The position numbers and the translations under genes are program-made. Under the pieces are notes generated by a model. The model searched no databases. It saw nothing but the letters and a program-made list of their open reading frames with translations, and had not been told where the DNA came from. Source: Rickettsiales bacterium (lineage in GTDB: Bacteria; Pseudomonadota; Alphaproteobacteria; Rickettsiales; UBA1997). Taken from it: a stretch of DNA of 64,000 nucleotides. The stretch lies in NCBI GenBank assembly GCA_038123275.1, contig JAYORG010000010.1:278-64277 (forward strand). The letters are read 5' to 3'. Below are positions 26,314 to 30,275 of the stretch, piece after piece; position 1 is the stretch's first letter; every line of letters starts with the position of its first letter.

Positions 26314-27108
26314 TTAAATAAATTCTTTTAGGTAGAATTTTTCTGTTTCATTCATTTTAATGTAATTTACTAGATCTTCTTTTGCTTCTATAAAGCTGTG
26401 TGAGTTTATAGTTCCAGTAAAATGTTGATAGTTTAGATAGAGTAAATAGGTATTAATAACATCGCTTTCGCAATAGTTTCTGATGTCTTCTACCTTTCCT
26501 GAGTCATAATAATCCATTACTTTTGATCCATCAATACCACCTTTTCCTGGTAGATCTAATATTGAGCAAATTTCATTCATTTTAATTCTTGTCGATGCAC
26601 CAAAATCAGAAAATGCCTCTAATAAGTCACAGTGCCAGTCTAAAGAATATCTTTGGCTATAATTATTCCACTTATCTCCAATTTTATAAAGCCATGGGGC
26701 ACTTATTTTATGTTTCATAGCGCGATATTTTAGAACTGGTAAATCAAATGTTCTTCCGTTAAAGGTAACAAATCTTGGGGTTTTCTTTTTTAAATAAGAG
26801 AAAAATCCTTTTACTAATTCTTCTTCGGTTGAATTTACTGTTCCACCAGACTTAATGTTAGTTAAATGATATTGTTCTTGATTGTTTTCTCTTGCAATAT
26901 CAGCTTCTAAGAAGCTAATGGCTACAATTTTATGGAAAGGCTGTCTAAGAAAATCATTTTTGCCATCTGTTATCTCAAGATGGTATTTTTTTAAAGCTTC
27001 CCTTTTTTCTTGTTTATTGGCAGATTTATCTATTCCTATTAAATTTATTGCTGCTTCTTCATCTGGGATAGTTTCTATATCGAATACAAATAGTGATTTA
27101 TGTTGCAT
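26314..27108 (-). CDS. 3'-5' exonuclease related to the PolB exonuclease domain (RNase H-like fold)
   Basis: LFVFDIETIPD (ExoI), FVTFNGRTFDLPVLKYR (ExoII) and YCESDVINTYLLY (ExoIII-like) match the predicted PolB-exo-like family. Confidence 0.75.
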   Translation of the reverse strand: MQHKSLFVFDIETIPDEEAAINLIGIDKSANKQEKREALKKYHLEITDGKNDFLRQPFHKIVAISFLEADIARENNQEQYHLTNIKSGGTVNSTEEELVKGFFSYLKKKTPRFVTFNGRTFDLPVLKYRAMKHKISAPWLYKIGDKWNNYSQRYSLDWHCDLLEAFSDFGASTRIKMNEICSILDLPGKGGIDGSKVMDYYDSGKVEDIRNYCESDVINTYLLYLNYQHFTGTINSHSFIEAKEDLVNYIKMNETEKFYLKEFI

Positions 27109-27121
27109 TGCTTATTTTAAT

Positions 27122-28012
27122 TTACTTAACTTTGCCTTCTGTTATTTTGTTACTAACAAGGTTATAAGTTTGATTGGTTCTTAGGGTAAAGTTTAGCTCA
27201 ATTTGATTAGTTTCTTTGTTTAGATTGTAAATTTCTTCATCAATGTCTTGTTTTCCAGTTAAAACTCTCCATTTACTAAGACCCATACTCCAATTAATGT
27301 TAGCTTTATTATTACTTATTGATTTTATGTAAATTGGATTTTCCTCTAAATTATCTTCAAAAACTATTTTATCTCCATTTATCCATGCTATCCAATTGTC
27401 TTTAGAAATATAAAGAATTGCATTTAGATAAATTCTTGATTGTTCTTTTATCTTTACTACTTCTTTTTCAACTTCTTTTTCAATAACCTCTGTTTCTATT
27501 ATTTTTTCTTCTAATGGTTTTTTAATATGGAATGCTTCTATTGCCTCCTCAACTCTTATTATTTCTTCGTCTGTTAGCATTAATGATGGTGGAGCTTTGT
27601 CTTTTTCAAAGGGTACATCAGTTACTTTTACTTCTTGAGTTTCTTGACTATCATTAGATTCTTTATTTTCAGATTCTCTTTCTTTATCATCTCTAGAAGT
27701 TGTTTTTGTTCTATTATTATCTGAGGTTTCTGAATTTCTATCTTCTGGAATATCTTCTTCTGCATTACTTGCTTCATTTTTTTTGTCTTCCTCTTTATCA
27801 TCTGCTACATTGTTTGCTTCATCTTCTTTATCTAAAATTACAGTTTTATTGCCACCTTGTGTTATTTTTTCAAGATCTATGGTATCGTTTAAATTTTGTT
27901 GATTATCTTCAATGGTTCTACTTGTTTCATTAACTAGTGGTTGTGCATAGCTTGTATTAGCTATGAGTATGGTAGATATTAAAAATATTAAAATTTTATT
28001 ATTTAATGTCAT
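27122..28012 (-). CDS. Secreted protein with long acidic linker and C-terminal beta-rich domain (PilP/GspC-HR-like by architecture)
   Basis: Signal peptide MTLNNKILIFLISTILIANTSYAQ. Acidic low-complexity region of about 120 aa. C-terminal YLNAILYISKDNWIAWINGDKIVFED...IYIKSISNNKANINW. The ATG at 28012 lies 2 nt after the upstream stop; the track start at 28036 is TTG. Confidence 0.55.
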   Translation of the reverse strand: MTLNNKILIFLISTILIANTSYAQPLVNETSRTIEDNQQNLNDTIDLEKITQGGNKTVILDKEDEANNVADDKEEDKKNEASNAEEDIPEDRNSETSDNNRTKTTSRDDKERESENKESNDSQETQEVKVTDVPFEKDKAPPSLMLTDEEIIRVEEAIEAFHIKKPLEEKIIETEVIEKEVEKEVVKIKEQSRIYLNAILYISKDNWIAWINGDKIVFEDNLEENPIYIKSISNNKANINWSMGLSKWRVLTGKQDIDEEIYNLNKETNQIELNFTLRTNQTYNLVSNKITEGKVK

Positions 28013-28014
28013 TT

Positions 28015-28686
28015 TTATCTTTTCATTACATGCCAACTAAAAGCTGCTTTTACATTTAAGATCCCAGATATTTGTCCAGTACTAATTTTAACTAAATCTT
28101 TAAATTCATAAGTTTTATTTTTAGAGATAGATAATTGGTTAATAACTATATATCCAGTTAGACTCTTTCTTAAATCTCTTAAAAACTCAATAGCTCTGAC
28201 ATCATCTGGCGCAGCAAATGAAACCTGGCAGTTACTAATAAATATGCTGGATACTTTTTTCTTAGATGCTTCATTGCCAAATTTACGAGGTACTGACATT
28301 TTAAAGTCATATTTTCGAATATCATATTTTTTTGCTAATTTTCTAATCACATCTCCCAATAATTGAGAGTTTATACCCTCAGCATTTTTTTGCTGACTAG
28401 AGGCCTGGTTCCATCTGTTATTATATTTTTTAGCAAGATTTAAATTATCCCTGGTTTCTTTGCTTTCTTTTCGTACTACCTTAATATAGTCTTTTAGTTC
28501 TGTTATATTCTTACTGTCAAAGTTAAGTAATGTTTGGCGATAAAGGTTTAGTCCAAAAATAAATCCTGAAAAAATAACAGCAATAGTAAAATAAAGTAAT
28601 ATATTATATAAACCTTTTCTGAATTTCTTTTTATAAAGATACCATCTATCTTTATTTTGTGGTTTGTCATTTTGTTTGTGGATCAT
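28015..28686 (-). CDS. Bitopic membrane protein (PilO/GspM/MshJ-like by architecture)
   Basis: Short basic N-terminus, one TM (LYNILLYFTIAVIFSGFIFGL), a coiled-coil segment, then a beta-alpha-beta-beta pattern (ISNCQVSFAAPDDVRAIEFLRDLRKSLTGYIVINQLSI...ILNVKAAFSW). Its ATG overlaps the upstream stop (ATGA). Confidence 0.55.
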   Translation of the reverse strand: MIHKQNDKPQNKDRWYLYKKKFRKGLYNILLYFTIAVIFSGFIFGLNLYRQTLLNFDSKNITELKDYIKVVRKESKETRDNLNLAKKYNNRWNQASSQQKNAEGINSQLLGDVIRKLAKKYDIRKYDFKMSVPRKFGNEASKKKVSSIFISNCQVSFAAPDDVRAIEFLRDLRKSLTGYIVINQLSISKNKTYEFKDLVKISTGQISGILNVKAAFSWHVMKR

Positions 28687-30275
28687 TTCTGACTCCTAAT
28701 TATTAATGTAAAAGATACTTCATAATATTTTTTACTAAAGTCAAGATCTTGGGGTAGGTCAGAGCTGGTAATGCGATATTCTTTAAATTTATTAGTGGTA
28801 GTTAAGATCAGGTCATCATAAATTTTAAATAAACTTTCTACATCACCAGTATCATTTTTAATTTTGCCTATAATAGTAAAAGAGAAATTGTCTTTCGTAG
28901 ATTGTATTGTAAATTCATTAACAAATCTAAAATTATGTACAGTCACACTTTTACTTGTAATAAATTCTAATATTTTAAAGAAATCCAGAGGTTTAGCTTT
29001 GTTTTTTTCTATAGACTCATCTAATCTGCCAAATGCAATAATTTCATCTATACCCAAAAGTACTCCATTGTCTTTTGGAGCTTCTTCTCCAATAACTTGT
29101 TCTTTTATCTTTACTAGGTTTTGTTCTTCCATTAACTTGGTTTTTATTAATCTATTAATTTGTTTACTATTTCCGGATTGCTCAATTTGAATAAAAATTG
29201 AGTAGAAAATAACCACAAGCAATAATGAAAAACTTATGCCAACAGATATTTTTGAAAGAGTGTCTAATATCCAAAGAGATTTTATTTTTTTGGTAATTGA
29301 CTTAAGTATTTTATTTGAATTAACAAATACGCTTGATACTAAAATATCAGCAAATTGACTATTTTTTGGAATTAATTTGTTATAACCAATTTTTTCTGCT
29401 GCTTCTCTTGGTGTATAATTAGTAAAATTAATTTCATGGTTTTTTATGTGGCTAATTTTTTCTATAACAAATCTTGGTAAGATGTTGATTATTTCTACAT
29501 CTTCCATTTTTAGATTAGGAAGTATTCTTTTTAAATATTCGTTTGTTCTAAAAATATCTTGCTCAAAATCAACTATAAAATTTTTGTCTTCATATTCATA
29601 TTTTGTAAGTCTGGTAAAAATAATTTTTTCATTTAAAAATACAACTTGTCTAATACCGCTTACTTTATTTTGAATAATTAATAAAGTTATTTTGTTAGAA
29701 TTATCATTGTCTTTATTTTCATTTTTATTTTCATTTTCATCTTCATTTTTTTTAGCTTTTTTATTTTCAATTTGGTTTTGGGCTAAATGTAATTTTTTAA
29801 TTAAGCTAACTGTTTCTATTGGCAGCATATAAATGCCAAGTAATGGATTACTTACTTCTTGTAATAAAAAATCAATCCATTGATCCATTGCGTCAAAATA
29901 AACTGATGAAACATACATACATTCCCATTTTTTCATCTTCTTGTTTTTATAGGTCATGTAATTATATACTAATTCTTCAGAATTAGAAATAGATTGAAAT
30001 TCTTGCTGAAGATGTCTATTGATTATTTGTTTTAGGTCAAGGCGGTTAATAGAGGGATAAGATTTATTTGTATAAGTTTGCTCTGCGTTATCCAGTAGTA
30101 TATAAACTGGAACACCTTTATTTTGCTTAAAAATTTTCAATAGCTGAATTTTACCTTCTCTTGAAAGAGATGGCACTAAGACCTTATTTTTAACATGTGT
30201 ACCATGGTTTAACGAGAGTAGGGAACTTTCATTTCCAATGGTTATTGTAAAAGCCTTCTTTGTGAACATTATCAA
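28683..30275 (-). CDS. Bitopic membrane protein: cytoplasmic PilM/actin-like region fused to TM plus PilN-like periplasmic domain (MshI/GspL-like by architecture)
   Basis: N-terminal FTITIGNESSLLSL (compare the PilM IDIGSSSIKLV phosphate-1 strand, here lacking the Asp). A second lobe ITLLIIQNKVSGIRQVVFLNEKIIFTR. A TM at about aa 345-368. C-terminal coiled coil plus alpha/beta domain. Confidence 0.55.
   Translation of the reverse strand: MIMFTKKAFTITIGNESSLLSLNHGTHVKNKVLVPSLSREGKIQLLKIFKQNKGVPVYILLDNAEQTYTNKSYPSINRLDLKQIINRHLQQEFQSISNSEELVYNYMTYKNKKMKKWECMYVSSVYFDAMDQWIDFLLQEVSNPLLGIYMLPIETVSLIKKLHLAQNQIENKKAKKNEDENENKNENKDNDNSNKITLLIIQNKVSGIRQVVFLNEKIIFTRLTKYEYEDKNFIVDFEQDIFRTNEYLKRILPNLKMEDVEIINILPRFVIEKISHIKNHEINFTNYTPREAAEKIGYNKLIPKNSQFADILVSSVFVNSNKILKSITKKIKSLWILDTLSKISVGISFSLLLVVIFYSIFIQIEQSGNSKQINRLIKTKLMEEQNLVKIKEQVIGEEAPKDNGVLLGIDEIIAFGRLDESIEKNKAKPLDFFKILEFITSKSVTVHNFRFVNEFTIQSTKDNFSFTIIGKIKNDTGDVESLFKIYDDLILTTTNKFKEYRITSSDLPQDLDFSKKYYEVSFTLIIRSQK

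What the first reader, a model, noticed from the sequence alone, without database searches (positions are those of the whole stretch)
26314..30275. Coupled four-gene operon: MshI/PilMN-like, PilO-like and PilP-like envelope trio ending in a PolB-type 3'-5' exonuclease, with no secretin, ATPase or pilin nearby
Seen in sequence:
- Four minus-strand ORFs are packed with an ATGA overlap (28683-28686), a 2-nt gap (28013-28014) and a 13-nt gap (27109-27121).
- The 530-aa protein has a cytoplasmic region with two PilM/actin-like strand motifs (FTITIGNESSLLSL and ITLLIIQNKVSGIRQVVF), a single TM, then a coiled coil and an alpha/beta domain.
- The 223-aa protein has a TM, a coiled coil and a ferredoxin-like pattern.
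- The 296-aa protein has a signal peptide, an acidic linker of about 120 aa and a beta-rich C-terminal domain.

Established knowledge: this order and topology is that of the inner-membrane alignment subcomplex of type IV pili, MSHA and T2SS systems (PilM+PilN or MshI/GspL, then PilO/MshJ/GspM, then PilP/MshK/GspC-HR). That subcomplex is normally followed by a secretin.

What is unusual: the fourth gene here is a cytoplasmic PolB-exo-like nuclease, and no secretin, pilin or PilB/T ATPase lies within 30 kb on either side. The phosphate-binding Asp of PilM appears to be lost (GNES instead of DIGS).

Inference: this is either a repurposed platform of unknown function, possibly linked to DNA processing or uptake, or a scattered pil locus.
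Basis: partly seen in the sequence, partly recalled or inferred. Interest (0 to 1): 0.72.

Follow-up and report, generated by a model that had tools for sequence, protein, structure and literature searches.

The report
Unannotated pilus-platform trio plus neighbouring exonuclease
Three unannotated envelope genes in this AT-rich Rickettsiales-like bacterium are most likely the inner-membrane scaffold of a type IV pilus or type II secretion-like machine, and the DNA exonuclease gene behind them is a neighbour only in this small lineage, not a conserved partner.

Summary
The four tightly packed minus-strand genes are real, and the junctions are as described. The 528/530-aa protein A models confidently as an actin-like cytoplasmic domain, one TM helix with a coiled coil, and a small alpha/beta domain. 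Its best structural matches are PilM, then FtsA and the GspL cytoplasmic domain. None of the three envelope proteins hits any Pfam or NCBIfam model.

The trio A-B-C occurs in the same order in nearly all 85 first-fetched relatives' loci where the contig reaches far enough, most titled Rickettsiales or Alphaproteobacteria. The A family has 993 cluster representatives.

In all 5 distant lineages examined, the trio directly follows a GspF/PilC-type platform gene. In 3 of these a GspE/PilB-type ATPase gene lies just upstream. In 10 other loci, prepilin-like genes abut the trio. The trio is therefore a divergent type IV filament assembly subcomplex, and in this window it is a scattered piece of that system.

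The PolB-exo-like gene (PF10108, DEDDy motifs intact) follows the trio only in the window's own clade. It is absent, without remnant, from one clade member and from 85 other loci. It evolves slowly (80-83% identity) while the trio evolves fast (42-60%). A DNA-processing link is not supported.

The folds of B and C remain unproven. Interest is moderate.

The parts
28683..30275 (-). Protein A. It has a PilM/GspL-like actin-fold cytoplasmic domain (aa ~1-320), one TM helix plus a coiled coil (aa ~329-395), and a periplasmic alpha/beta domain (aa ~409-528). The likely true start is ATG 30269 (528 aa).
   Evidence: AF2 model: pLDDT 85, pTM 0.65. Foldseek best matches are PilM 2ych (E = 1e-8) and 5eou, then FtsA, then the EpsL/GspL cytoplasmic domain 1yf5/4pht. 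TM segment at 341-359. No Pfam or NCBIfam hit. The family has 993 cluster representatives.
28015..28686 (-). Protein B (223 aa). It is a bitopic membrane protein with a basic N-terminus, a TM helix at aa 28-46, then a coiled-coil-like stretch and a ~110-aa C-terminal domain. Its position and topology are those of GspM/PilO/MshJ.
   Evidence: ATGA overlap with A. TM segment. It lies between A and C in nearly all 85 first-fetched loci whose contigs extend far enough. It is homologous to the B gene of the distant E-F-A-B-C operons (hhalign probability 99.9%, E = 1e-31). No hit to Pfam or to PDB sequences. The fold was not modelled.
27122..28012 (-). Protein C (296 aa). It has a signal peptide (SYA|Q, no lipobox Cys), an acidic disordered linker, a short conserved helix (S-I/L-M-F/L-x-x-E-E), and a seven-strand beta domain at aa ~195-280. 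Its position is that of PilP/GspC-HR/MshK.
   Evidence: 2-nt gap after B. Alignments A3 and A4 show invariant W207, W210, K215, N280, Q281 and G293. In the AF2 model the beta domain has pLDDT 67-85 and the rest is disordered. The two top Foldseek matches are N. meningitidis PilP (2ivw, 4av2_M), but with E about 0.5.
26314..27108 (-). PolB-exo-like 3'-5' exonuclease (264 aa, PF10108). It lies 13 nt downstream of C and is probably co-transcribed. It is judged a lineage-specific neighbour, not a component of the trio's machine.
   Evidence: PF10108 E = 2.9e-70. DEDDy motifs are intact. It is adjacent to the trio only in the window, L088, L089 and L090. It is absent from L086/87 and from 85 other loci. 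It is 80-83% identical within the clade, against 42-60% for the trio. It stands alone in L095-L097.
30373..31050 (-). queC lies upstream on the same strand, 97-103 nt before A. It is a syntenic housekeeping neighbour in the same clade and marks the upstream edge of the cluster.
   Evidence: PF06508 E = 3e-72. queC precedes the trio in L086-L089. A sigma-70-like match lies at 30333-30306, but such matches are no more frequent here than in shuffled sequence.

Best explanation
Genes A, B and C encode the cytoplasmic-membrane assembly or 'alignment' subcomplex of a type IV filament machine, meaning the type IV pilus, MSHA or type II secretion class.

Proposed roles:
- A is a GspL/MshI-type fusion. 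Its PilM-like actin-fold domain would dock the assembly ATPase in the cytoplasm. One TM helix links it to a PilN/GspL-like periplasmic domain.
- B is the GspM/PilO-like bitopic partner and would pair with A through the coiled coils and periplasmic domains.
- C is a secreted PilP/GspC-HR-like connector. Its C-terminal beta domain would reach the outer-membrane channel.

History of the locus: the ancestral arrangement, still seen in distant alphaproteobacterial relatives, is an operon ATPase (E) - platform (F) - A - B - C. In the small-genome Rickettsiales-like lineages, including this window, the system is dispersed and the trio stands alone among housekeeping genes.

The exonuclease: the PF10108 gene downstream is a conserved housekeeping gene that came to lie behind the trio in this one clade. 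It is probably co-transcribed but not functionally tied to the trio.

Shown: the fold of A, the topologies, the conservation of the trio, the linkage to the E, F and pilin genes in relatives, and the restricted spread of the exonuclease adjacency.

Inferred: the folds and roles of B and C, the ATPase docking, the loss of nucleotide binding, whether the filament is a pilus or a secretion pseudopilus, and whether the rest of the machine exists in this genome.
For: Fold of A:
- AF2 model with pLDDT 85.
- Foldseek ranks PilM first (2ych E = 1e-8; 5eou/5eox/5eoy; 3jc8 PilM), followed by FtsA and the cytoplasmic domain of EpsL/GspL (1yf5, 4pht; TM-score normalised to the target 0.57-0.64).
- A and B each have a single TM segment, and C has a signal peptide.
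- This matches the published description of GspL and GspM as single-TM proteins with periplasmic ferredoxin-like domains, GspC as the link to the secretin, and PilM as the counterpart of the GspL cytoplasmic domain (PMC10128026; PMC10191384 Table 1).

Conservation:
- The order A-B-C is kept in nearly all 85 first-fetched loci whose contigs extend far enough.
- The family has 993 representatives at E <= 1e-3.

Genetic linkage in relatives:
- T2SSF lies immediately upstream of A in L004/5, L091, L092, L093 and L094.
- T2SSE with an MshEN domain lies upstream of that in L091, L092 and L093. This makes 5 of 5 distant lineages.
- B of these operons is homologous to the window-type B.
- Prepilin-type genes (TIGR02532 above its cutoff) abut the trio in L059, 61, 62, 64, 65, 68 and 72 (convergent; up to three paralogues where the contig extends) and in L078-80 (co-oriented).
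- Two N_methyl genes lie near the trio in L094.

C protein: the top two of 350,542 PDB chains are PilP (not significant).

Exonuclease as a bystander: as listed under parts.

Literature: type IV pilus or T2SS components are reported as ancestral and patchily retained in Rickettsiales, especially in aquatic and early-branching lineages (PMC10847448).
Against: - No sequence-profile link to any PilM/N/O/P, GspL/M/C or Msh family for A, B or C, not even for the most distant family members.
- The fold of B was never modelled.
- The match of C's domain to PilP has E about 0.5 and a TM-score of at most 0.40.
- 13 of 39 C homologues give a weak hit to PilZN3 instead.
- hhalign found no paralogy between B and the periplasmic half of A.
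- No secretin was seen in any of the 99 loci.
- No ATPase, platform, peptidase or pilin gene lies in the 64-kb window, so the existence of the rest of the machine in this genome is unverified.
- Within the window's clade the trio-exonuclease junction is tight (0-21 nt) in four lineages. This is compatible with co-expression.
Confidence: 0.7

Rival explanations
1. Functional module: in this clade the trio and the PolB-type exonuclease work together. For example, a pilus-like DNA-uptake platform could be coupled to a cytoplasmic 3'-5' exonuclease that processes incoming DNA.
For: Four lineages (window, L088, L089, L090) keep the order C then exonuclease, with gaps of 0-21 nt or an overlap, while protein A has diverged to 45-60% identity. 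No terminator-like site lies between the genes. Type IV filaments mediate DNA uptake in other bacteria (established knowledge).
Against: - The adjacency is absent from L086/87, a member of the same clade, with no remnant.
- It is absent from all 85 other trio loci and from all 5 distant E-F-A-B-C operons.
- Exonuclease relatives at 59-62% identity stand alone among housekeeping genes.
- The exonuclease evolves at the rate of its housekeeping neighbours queC and the TAXI-type binding protein (73-83% identity), not at the rate of the trio (42-60%).
- queC upstream is equally syntenic, so tight packing here reflects a compact genome.
- No competence genes (comEA, comEC, dprA) lie in the window.
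Confidence: 0.07
2. Orphan or repurposed platform: the rest of the type IV filament machine has been lost from this reduced genome. The trio survives with a different, unknown envelope role.
For: The 64-kb window holds no other filament gene. None of the first 85 loci holds a T2SSE gene within 10 kb, and only L004/L005 hold a T2SSF gene. Multiple independent losses of pilus or T2SS genes are reported in Rickettsiales (PMC10847448). The actin-like domain lacks the canonical phosphate-binding Asp residues.
Against: Ten of the Rickettsiales-like loci keep prepilin-type genes directly beside the trio. This argues that the trio still serves a filament in that group. The window's proteins retain every invariant family residue. 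Dispersed pil genes are normal even in model type IVa pilus organisms, where pilMNOPQ lies apart from pilBCD (established knowledge).
Confidence: 0.13
3. The trio does not belong to a type IV filament system. A would be an actin-like (FtsA/ASKHA-type) membrane protein of another process, such as division or envelope biogenesis, with two accessory envelope proteins.
For: FtsA chains score nearly as well as PilM in Foldseek (E 1e-7 to 1e-5). There is no profile hit to any pilus or secretion family. The commonest neighbours are the housekeeping genes acpS, gpsA and guaA.
Against: PilM ranks first, and GspL-cyto covers its targets best. FtsA has no TM helix followed by a periplasmic domain. The direct, same-strand linkage to T2SSF/T2SSE in 5 of 5 distant lineages and to prepilin genes in 10 loci is specific to type IV filaments.
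Confidence: 0.05

Closest known systems
T2SS assembly-platform proteins GspL, GspM and GspC (PulL/M/C)
   Same: - A has the GspL architecture: an actin-like cytoplasmic domain, one TM helix and a periplasmic alpha/beta domain in a single polypeptide.
- B has the GspM topology.
- The third gene encodes a periplasmic connector-like protein.
- In distant relatives the trio sits in one operon with gspE- and gspF-type genes.
- The canonical nucleotide-binding Asp residues are missing, as is known for GspL (from memory).
   Different: - No hit to the T2SSL, T2SSM or T2SSC profiles.
- The cytoplasmic domain of A (~320 aa) is PilM-sized rather than GspL-sized (~240 aa).
- C has a cleavable signal peptide instead of GspC's N-terminal TM helix, and no PDZ domain.
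- The neighbouring pilin-like genes encode 330-440-aa proteins, not ~140-aa pseudopilins.
- No gspD secretin was seen.
- The linked ATPase and platform proteins score below the GspE and GspF equivalog cutoffs.
Type IVa pilus alignment subcomplex PilM-PilN-PilO-PilP
   Same: - The best structural match of A is PilM (2ych, 5eou).
- The order is cytoplasmic actin-like part, then bitopic proteins, then a periplasmic beta-domain protein.
- The best-ranked structural neighbours of C's beta domain are PilP (not significant).
   Different: - The PilM-like and PilN-like parts are fused.
- C is not a lipoprotein: it has no lipobox Cys.
- No pilQ follows the trio.
- No Pfam PilM_2, PilN, PilO or PilP hits.
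- The Asp of the first phosphate-binding motif is replaced by Thr.
MSHA pilus proteins MshI, MshJ and MshK with the ATPase MshE
   Same: - A is a long (~500 aa) fused PilM/N-type first protein, followed by two smaller envelope proteins.
- The ATPase linked to the trio in L091 carries the MshE-related c-di-GMP-binding motif (NF053729, 66.9 bits against a cutoff of 38).
   Different: No mshL secretin, mshM or mshN was seen in any locus. There is no sequence-level match. The MSHA system itself is poorly characterised (PMC10191384), so this comparison rests mainly on architecture recalled from memory.
PF10108 (DNA_pol_B_exo2), predicted 3'-5' exonuclease related to the PolB exonuclease domain
   Same: The fourth gene is a full-length member (E = 2.9e-70, profile positions 1-209 of 213) with Exo I, II and III motifs.
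   Different: Nothing unusual in the protein. Only its position behind the trio is peculiar, and that is confined to one clade.

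Membership tests
Type IVa pilus PilM/PilN/PilO/PilP | Sequence match to the family profiles (Pfam PilM_2, PilN, PilO, PilP, or the NCBIfam equivalents) | tested here: not met
   No such hit for A, B or C at E <= 1. None for 39 C homologues, for 10 distant A homologues, or for the B and C proteins of L091/L092. Profile searches against PDB sequences found no PilM, PilO or PilP. The only family member to surface was PilN chain 3jc8_Na, at E = 1 over the TM and coiled-coil stretch of the B profile, which is not meaningful.
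Type IVa pilus PilM/PilN/PilO/PilP | Cytoplasmic actin-like (ASKHA) fold of PilM | tested here: met
   AF2 model with pLDDT 85. Foldseek top hits are PilM 2ych_A (E = 9.7e-9) and 5eou (E = 1.4e-8), probability 1.00.
Type IVa pilus PilM/PilN/PilO/PilP | Nucleotide-binding phosphate motifs (DxG) in PilM | tested here: not met
   By sequence reading only. The first strand is T-I-G-N, with Thr12 nearly invariant across 41 homologues. The second motif region is K-V-S-G-I-R and has no Asp. No residue-level structural superposition was available.
Type IVa pilus PilM/PilN/PilO/PilP | PilP is a lipoprotein with a C-terminal beta-sandwich that binds the secretin | tested here: inconclusive
   No lipobox Cys; the predicted cleavage site is SYA|Q. 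The beta domain was modelled at pLDDT 67-85. PilP chains 2ivw and 4av2_M rank first and second, but with E = 0.45-0.50. Secretin binding is not testable here.
Type IVa pilus PilM/PilN/PilO/PilP | Secretin gene (pilQ) following the cluster | tested here: not met
   No secretin in the window (Pfam scans). None is called in the annotated loci.
T2SS GspL/GspM/GspC | GspL architecture: actin-like cytoplasmic domain, single TM helix and periplasmic ferredoxin-like domain in one protein | tested here: met
   Model secondary structure and TM segment. GspL/EpsL cytoplasmic domains 1yf5, 4pht and 5tkw match at E = 7e-6 to 2e-5, with target-normalised TM-scores of 0.49-0.64. The periplasmic domain (two helices, two strands, one helix, two strands; aa 409-528) was not searched on its own.
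T2SS GspL/GspM/GspC | Sequence match to the T2SSL, T2SSM or T2SSC profiles; GspC with an N-terminal TM helix, HR domain and PDZ or coiled coil | tested here: not met
   No profile hits. C has a signal peptide and no PDZ domain.
T2SS GspL/GspM/GspC | Operon linkage with the gspE (ATPase) and gspF (platform) genes | tested here: met
   Met in relatives, not in the window. T2SSF lies directly upstream of A in L004/5, L091, L092, L093 and L094, and T2SSE upstream in L091-L093. The window has neither.
T2SS GspL/GspM/GspC | GspM/PilO-type fold of the second protein | not tested
   Only the topology (basic N-terminus, TM helix at 28-46) was shown.
MSHA pilus (MshI/J/K, MshE) | MshE-type ATPase with an N-terminal c-di-GMP-binding motif; mshL, mshM and mshN genes | tested here: inconclusive
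   The L091 ATPase hits NF053729 at 66.9 bits (cutoff 38), but scores equally for GspE (529 bits) and PilB (525 bits), both below their cutoffs. No mshL, mshM or mshN equivalents were seen in any locus.
PF10108 DNA_pol_B_exo2 exonuclease | Full-length profile match and DEDDy catalytic motifs | tested here: met
   236.7 bits against a cutoff of 24. Motifs FDIET, NGRTFD and YCESD are present.

The most novel reading that the evidence does not exclude
In this clade of Rickettsiales-like bacteria, a divergent and so far unannotated type IV filament platform (A-B-C) has become transcriptionally and functionally coupled to a PolB-type 3'-5' exonuclease. The pair would form a DNA-uptake and processing module in a reduced genome. 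More broadly, A-B-C would define an alphaproteobacteria-wide class of assembly-platform proteins that current profile libraries do not detect.
Probability: 0.07. Interest if true: 0.75.

Novelty: new variant of a known kind. Interest (0 to 1): 0.4.

Why it matters
Three protein families are currently annotated only as 'hypothetical protein'. For A this was shown directly: 993 cluster representatives, no Pfam or NCBIfam model, found across Alphaproteobacteria and in many small-genome Rickettsiales-like MAGs. All three can now be assigned to the inner-membrane scaffold of a type IV filament machine.

This fills the 'missing' L/M/C or M/N/O/P slot when pilus or T2SS gene content is scored in these lineages. 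That scoring bears on how host attachment, secretion and their repeated loss in Rickettsiales are reconstructed. It also gives structural biologists a very divergent GspL-like fusion for comparison.

The eye-catching exonuclease linkage should not be over-read. It is local synteny.

Tried and rejected
- Profile searches (Pfam, NCBIfam, PDB sequences) for A, B and C, for their family alignments and for distant members gave nothing relevant.
- hhalign of B against A, to test for PilN/PilO-like paralogy, matched only the TM and coiled-coil region at 19% probability.
- Deepening the C alignment with a profile search returned only the same handful of proteins, plus two distant ones. The acidic linker probably swamped the word index.
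C was therefore modelled from 11 sequences, with low overall confidence, and B was not modelled.
- The weak PilZN3 hits in 13 of 39 C homologues (best E = 4e-4) were noted but not adopted. They are below the family cutoff and a PilZ-type N-terminal domain makes no sense in a secreted protein.
- The promoter and terminator scan was uninformative: counts equalled those in shuffled sequence.
- Literature searches for pilM/N/O/P in Rickettsiales found only general statements that pilus or T2SS components are present.
- A DNA-uptake operon reading was considered and rejected as the main explanation, for the reasons given under rival explanations.
- A search for an exonuclease remnant in the 500-bp gap of L086/87 found none.

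Full report
**Observation**

The window is AT-rich (about 30% G+C). It carries four consecutive minus-strand ORFs between 26314 and 30275.
- The stop of A and the start of B share ATGA at 28683-28686, with an AGGAG a few bases upstream.
- B ends in TAA, and two bases later C starts at ATG 28012.
- Thirteen bases separate the stop of C from the ATG of the fourth gene.

Two small corrections apply. A most likely begins at ATG 30269 (528 aa) rather than TTG 30275; this matches the database entry and the family consensus. C is 296 aa from ATG 28012, not the 304-aa TTG ORF.

Hydropathy gives one TM segment in A (aa 341-359) and one in B (aa 28-46, after a KKKFRK tail). C has a signal-peptide-like N-terminus ending SYA|Q, followed by a linker with 35 acidic residues in 115.

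The fourth protein is a full-length PF10108 'PolB-exo-related' 3'-5' exonuclease (E = 2.9e-70). Its Exo I, II and III motifs are intact.

Every independent (non-nested) ORF of at least 120 aa in the 64 kb was scanned against Pfam. The neighbours are housekeeping genes: truA, ribF, nadA, trpS, ahpC, dnaJ, a TAXI-type binding protein, queC, purD, phoU, lipA, gyrA, gatB and others. There are also transposase fragments and a few proteins with no Pfam match. A six-frame motif scan found no T2SSE Walker A and no credible prepilin motif. tblastn with the T2SSE, T2SSF and pilin genes of relatives found nothing in the window.

**What the three envelope proteins are**

None of them hits any Pfam or NCBIfam model.

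*Protein A.* It has a large family. A word-indexed search found 54 full-length homologues, all without Pfam domains. A profile search of 1.84 billion cluster representatives found 993 at E <= 1e-3 and 383 at E <= 1e-30. The few that carry a source name are called hypothetical proteins of Alphaproteobacteria or Rickettsiales MAGs.

AlphaFold2 with a 41-sequence alignment gave a confident model (pLDDT 85, pTM 0.65). It shows an N-terminal two-lobed alpha/beta domain (aa 1-320), a 65-residue helix containing the TM segment (aa 329-395), and a C-terminal alpha/beta domain (aa 409-528).

Foldseek against the PDB ranks PilM first (T. thermophilus 2ych, E = 9.7e-9; P. aeruginosa 5eou and others; M. 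xanthus 3jc8). BT_3980 and FtsA follow, then the cytoplasmic domains of EpsL/GspL/PulL (1yf5, 4pht, 5tkw). The last group is covered best when normalised to the target (TM-score up to 0.64).

A cytoplasmic PilM-like domain fused through one TM helix to a periplasmic domain is the GspL/MshI architecture. The reviews consulted describe GspL and GspM as single-TM proteins with periplasmic ferredoxin-like domains. They describe GspC or PilP as the link to the secretin, and PilM as the counterpart of cyto-GspL (PMC10128026; PMC10191384). The family lacks the Asp residues of the actin-fold phosphate motifs: Thr12-Ile-Gly-Asn in the first and Lys-Val-Ser-Gly-Ile-Arg in the second. Canonical nucleotide binding is therefore unlikely. 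This is an inference from sequence.

*Proteins B and C.* The evidence for these is weaker.
- B has the right size, topology and position for GspM/PilO. It has no sequence similarity to solved structures and no detectable paralogy to the periplasmic half of A.
- C could only be modelled from 11 sequences. The linker is disordered, and the C-terminal seven-strand beta domain reaches pLDDT 67-85.
- The two best of 350,542 PDB chains for C are N. meningitidis PilP (2ivw, 4av2_M), but at E about 0.5. This is suggestive, not significant.
- C has no lipobox, so it is not a PilP-type lipoprotein. It has no PDZ domain or N-terminal TM helix, so it is not a canonical GspC.

**Genomic context decides the assignment**

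A scan of one genome per GTDB species returned 80 loci. Most records are titled Rickettsiales or Alphaproteobacteria; several carry other, probably mislabelled, names. All are at most 37% identical to A. Where the contig extends far enough, nearly all of these and five metagenomic loci carry B and C homologues directly after A, in the same order.

In most of them the trio is flanked by the divergent genes acpS-gpsA-guaA (71, 64 and 53 of 88 loci). Nearby type IV filament genes are rare: T2SSF precedes the trio in L004/L005.

Prepilin-type genes abut the trio in two groups:
- In L059, 61, 62, 64, 65, 68 and 72, prepilin-type genes of 330-440 aa (up to three paralogues where the contig extends) converge on the trio.
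- In L078-80, one such gene follows C on the same strand.

Three of the four of these genes tested pass the TIGR02532 prepilin N-terminal domain cutoff.

All five more distant lineages I could inspect have the platform gene T2SSF immediately upstream of A. Three also have a GspE/PilB-type ATPase before it:
- L004/5: F-A-B-C.
- L091: E-F-A-B-C.
- L092: E-x-x-F-A-B-C.
- L093: E-F-A-B-C.
- L094: F-A-B-C, with two N_methyl genes nearby.

The B of these operons is homologous to the window-type B (hhalign 99.9%, E = 1e-31).

The L091 ATPase scores equally for GspE and PilB, below both equivalog cutoffs. It carries an MshE-related c-di-GMP-binding motif. The platform protein scores below the GspF and PilC cutoffs. 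The system is therefore a divergent type IV filament lineage, not a textbook T2SS, type IVa pilus or MSHA system. No secretin gene appeared in any locus.

**The exonuclease**

It directly follows the trio in the window and in three relatives whose A proteins are 45-60% identical: L088, L089 and L090. The gaps range from an overlap to 21 nt. The adjacency is absent from the following:
- A fifth member of the same syntenic clade, L086/87. There the order is queC, trio, a 500-bp gap, then the TAXI gene, with no tblastn remnant.
- All 85 other trio loci.
- All five distant operons.

In the reverse direction, the only close exonuclease relatives recovered from metagenome contigs (59-62% identity, L095-L097) stand alone among housekeeping genes, with no trio within 6 kb.

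Within the clade the exonuclease is 80-83% identical. This resembles its housekeeping neighbours queC (73-76%) and the TAXI protein (74-82%). A, B and C are only 42-60% identical.

The simplest reading is that a conserved housekeeping gene happens to lie behind the trio in one compact-genome clade. Co-transcription is likely, since no terminator-like site intervenes. Functional coupling is not indicated.

**Mechanism proposed, with the inferred steps marked**

- A sits in the inner membrane. Its PilM/GspL-like domain binds the N-terminal domain of the assembly ATPase and holds it against the platform protein (inferred from GspL-GspE and PilM-PilB/PilC precedent).
- The coiled coil and periplasmic domain of A pair with those of B (inferred).
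- C is exported by Sec. It attaches through its conserved helix or beta domain to A-B, and extends its long acidic linker across the periplasm towards an outer-membrane conduit (inferred, and the weakest step).
- The large pilin-like neighbours and the MshE-type c-di-GMP motif favour a surface pilus or adhesin-presenting filament over a classical secretion pseudopilus. This is not settled.
- Published surveys report type IV pilus or T2SS components as ancestral in Rickettsiales and retained mainly in aquatic and early-branching lineages, possibly for attachment to host cells (PMC10847448). This fits the freshwater and marine MAG origin of the loci.

**Limits**

Only 64 kb of this genome is available. 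Whether the ATPase, platform, peptidase, pilins and any secretin exist elsewhere in it is unknown. The folds of B and C are not established. The assignment of the trio therefore rests on the fold of A, on topology, and on strong gene linkage in relatives.

**Verdict**

The PilMN/O/P-like or GspL/M/C-like reading is supported for A and, through context, for the trio. The 'scattered locus' alternative is favoured. The exonuclease linkage is clade-specific synteny.

This is a divergent, unannotated variant of a known kind of machine. It is useful for annotation and for reconstructing pilus or secretion gene content in Rickettsiales-like bacteria. It is not a new type of system.

Noticed in passing
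window 20692-25188 (+): A 1498-aa ORF with acidic low-complexity tracts and no Pfam family above its cutoff. The only hints are weak Macro (E = 3e-4, aa 1117-1181), OGFr_N and PDZ_6 matches. In relative L090, dnaJ lies directly next to the TAXI gene, so this ORF is an insertion specific to the window's lineage. It is possibly an effector-like protein.
   Followed up: partly
window 31262-31570 (-) and 31629-31907 (-): Two tandem paralogous small ORFs (66% identity over 85 aa). They have lipoprotein-like N-termini (…SSCG / …NSCN) and Tyr/Asn/Arg-rich tails, and no Pfam hit. They lie between tRNA-Val (31160-31236) and an IS1 transposase fragment (31950-32333).
   Followed up: partly
window 31950-32333 (-) and 38199-38618 (+): Two short transposase fragments (DDE_Tnp_IS1 and DDE_Tnp_1_2). 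They interrupt a region that is otherwise syntenic with relative L086 (queC … purD, phoU, lipA, gyrA, gatB, mscS).
   Followed up: no
window 10383-10820 (+) and 10867-11307 (+): Tandem paralogous 145/146-aa multi-TM proteins (39% identity) with no Pfam match. They lie downstream of an SNase-like nuclease gene (9650-10270).
   Followed up: partly
window 714-1415 (-): An HNH endonuclease with homing-endonuclease-associated repeats (HNH_repeat, HNH). It lies next to tRNA-Ser (1735-1824).
   Followed up: no
window 44539-45357 (-): A 272-aa GTG-start ORF that matches only positions 64-282 of the 344-position Gln-synt_C profile. It may be a truncated or decaying glutamine synthetase gene.
   Followed up: no
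window 46737-49818 (+): An ankyrin-repeat protein (256 aa) whose end overlaps the start of a 778-aa ORF with no Pfam match. This could be another host-interaction-type gene pair.
   Followed up: no
L062 12959-16272 (similar in L059, L065, L068): Arrays of three paralogous, unusually large (328-443 aa) prepilin-type genes that converge on the trio. In L078-L080 a single 346-360-aa prepilin-type gene follows C on the same strand.
   Followed up: partly
L092 5910-8386: Two genes sit between the T2SSE and T2SSF genes of the distant E-F-A-B-C operon: a 344-aa protein with no Pfam match and an RTX-type protein (HemolysinCabind + Peptidase_M10_C).
   Followed up: no
L001-L085 (most loci): The trio is very often preceded by the divergently transcribed genes acpS-gpsA-guaA (71, 64 and 53 of 88 loci). 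In L095/L096, gpsA and guaA lie a few kb from the stand-alone exonuclease gene.
   Followed up: partly
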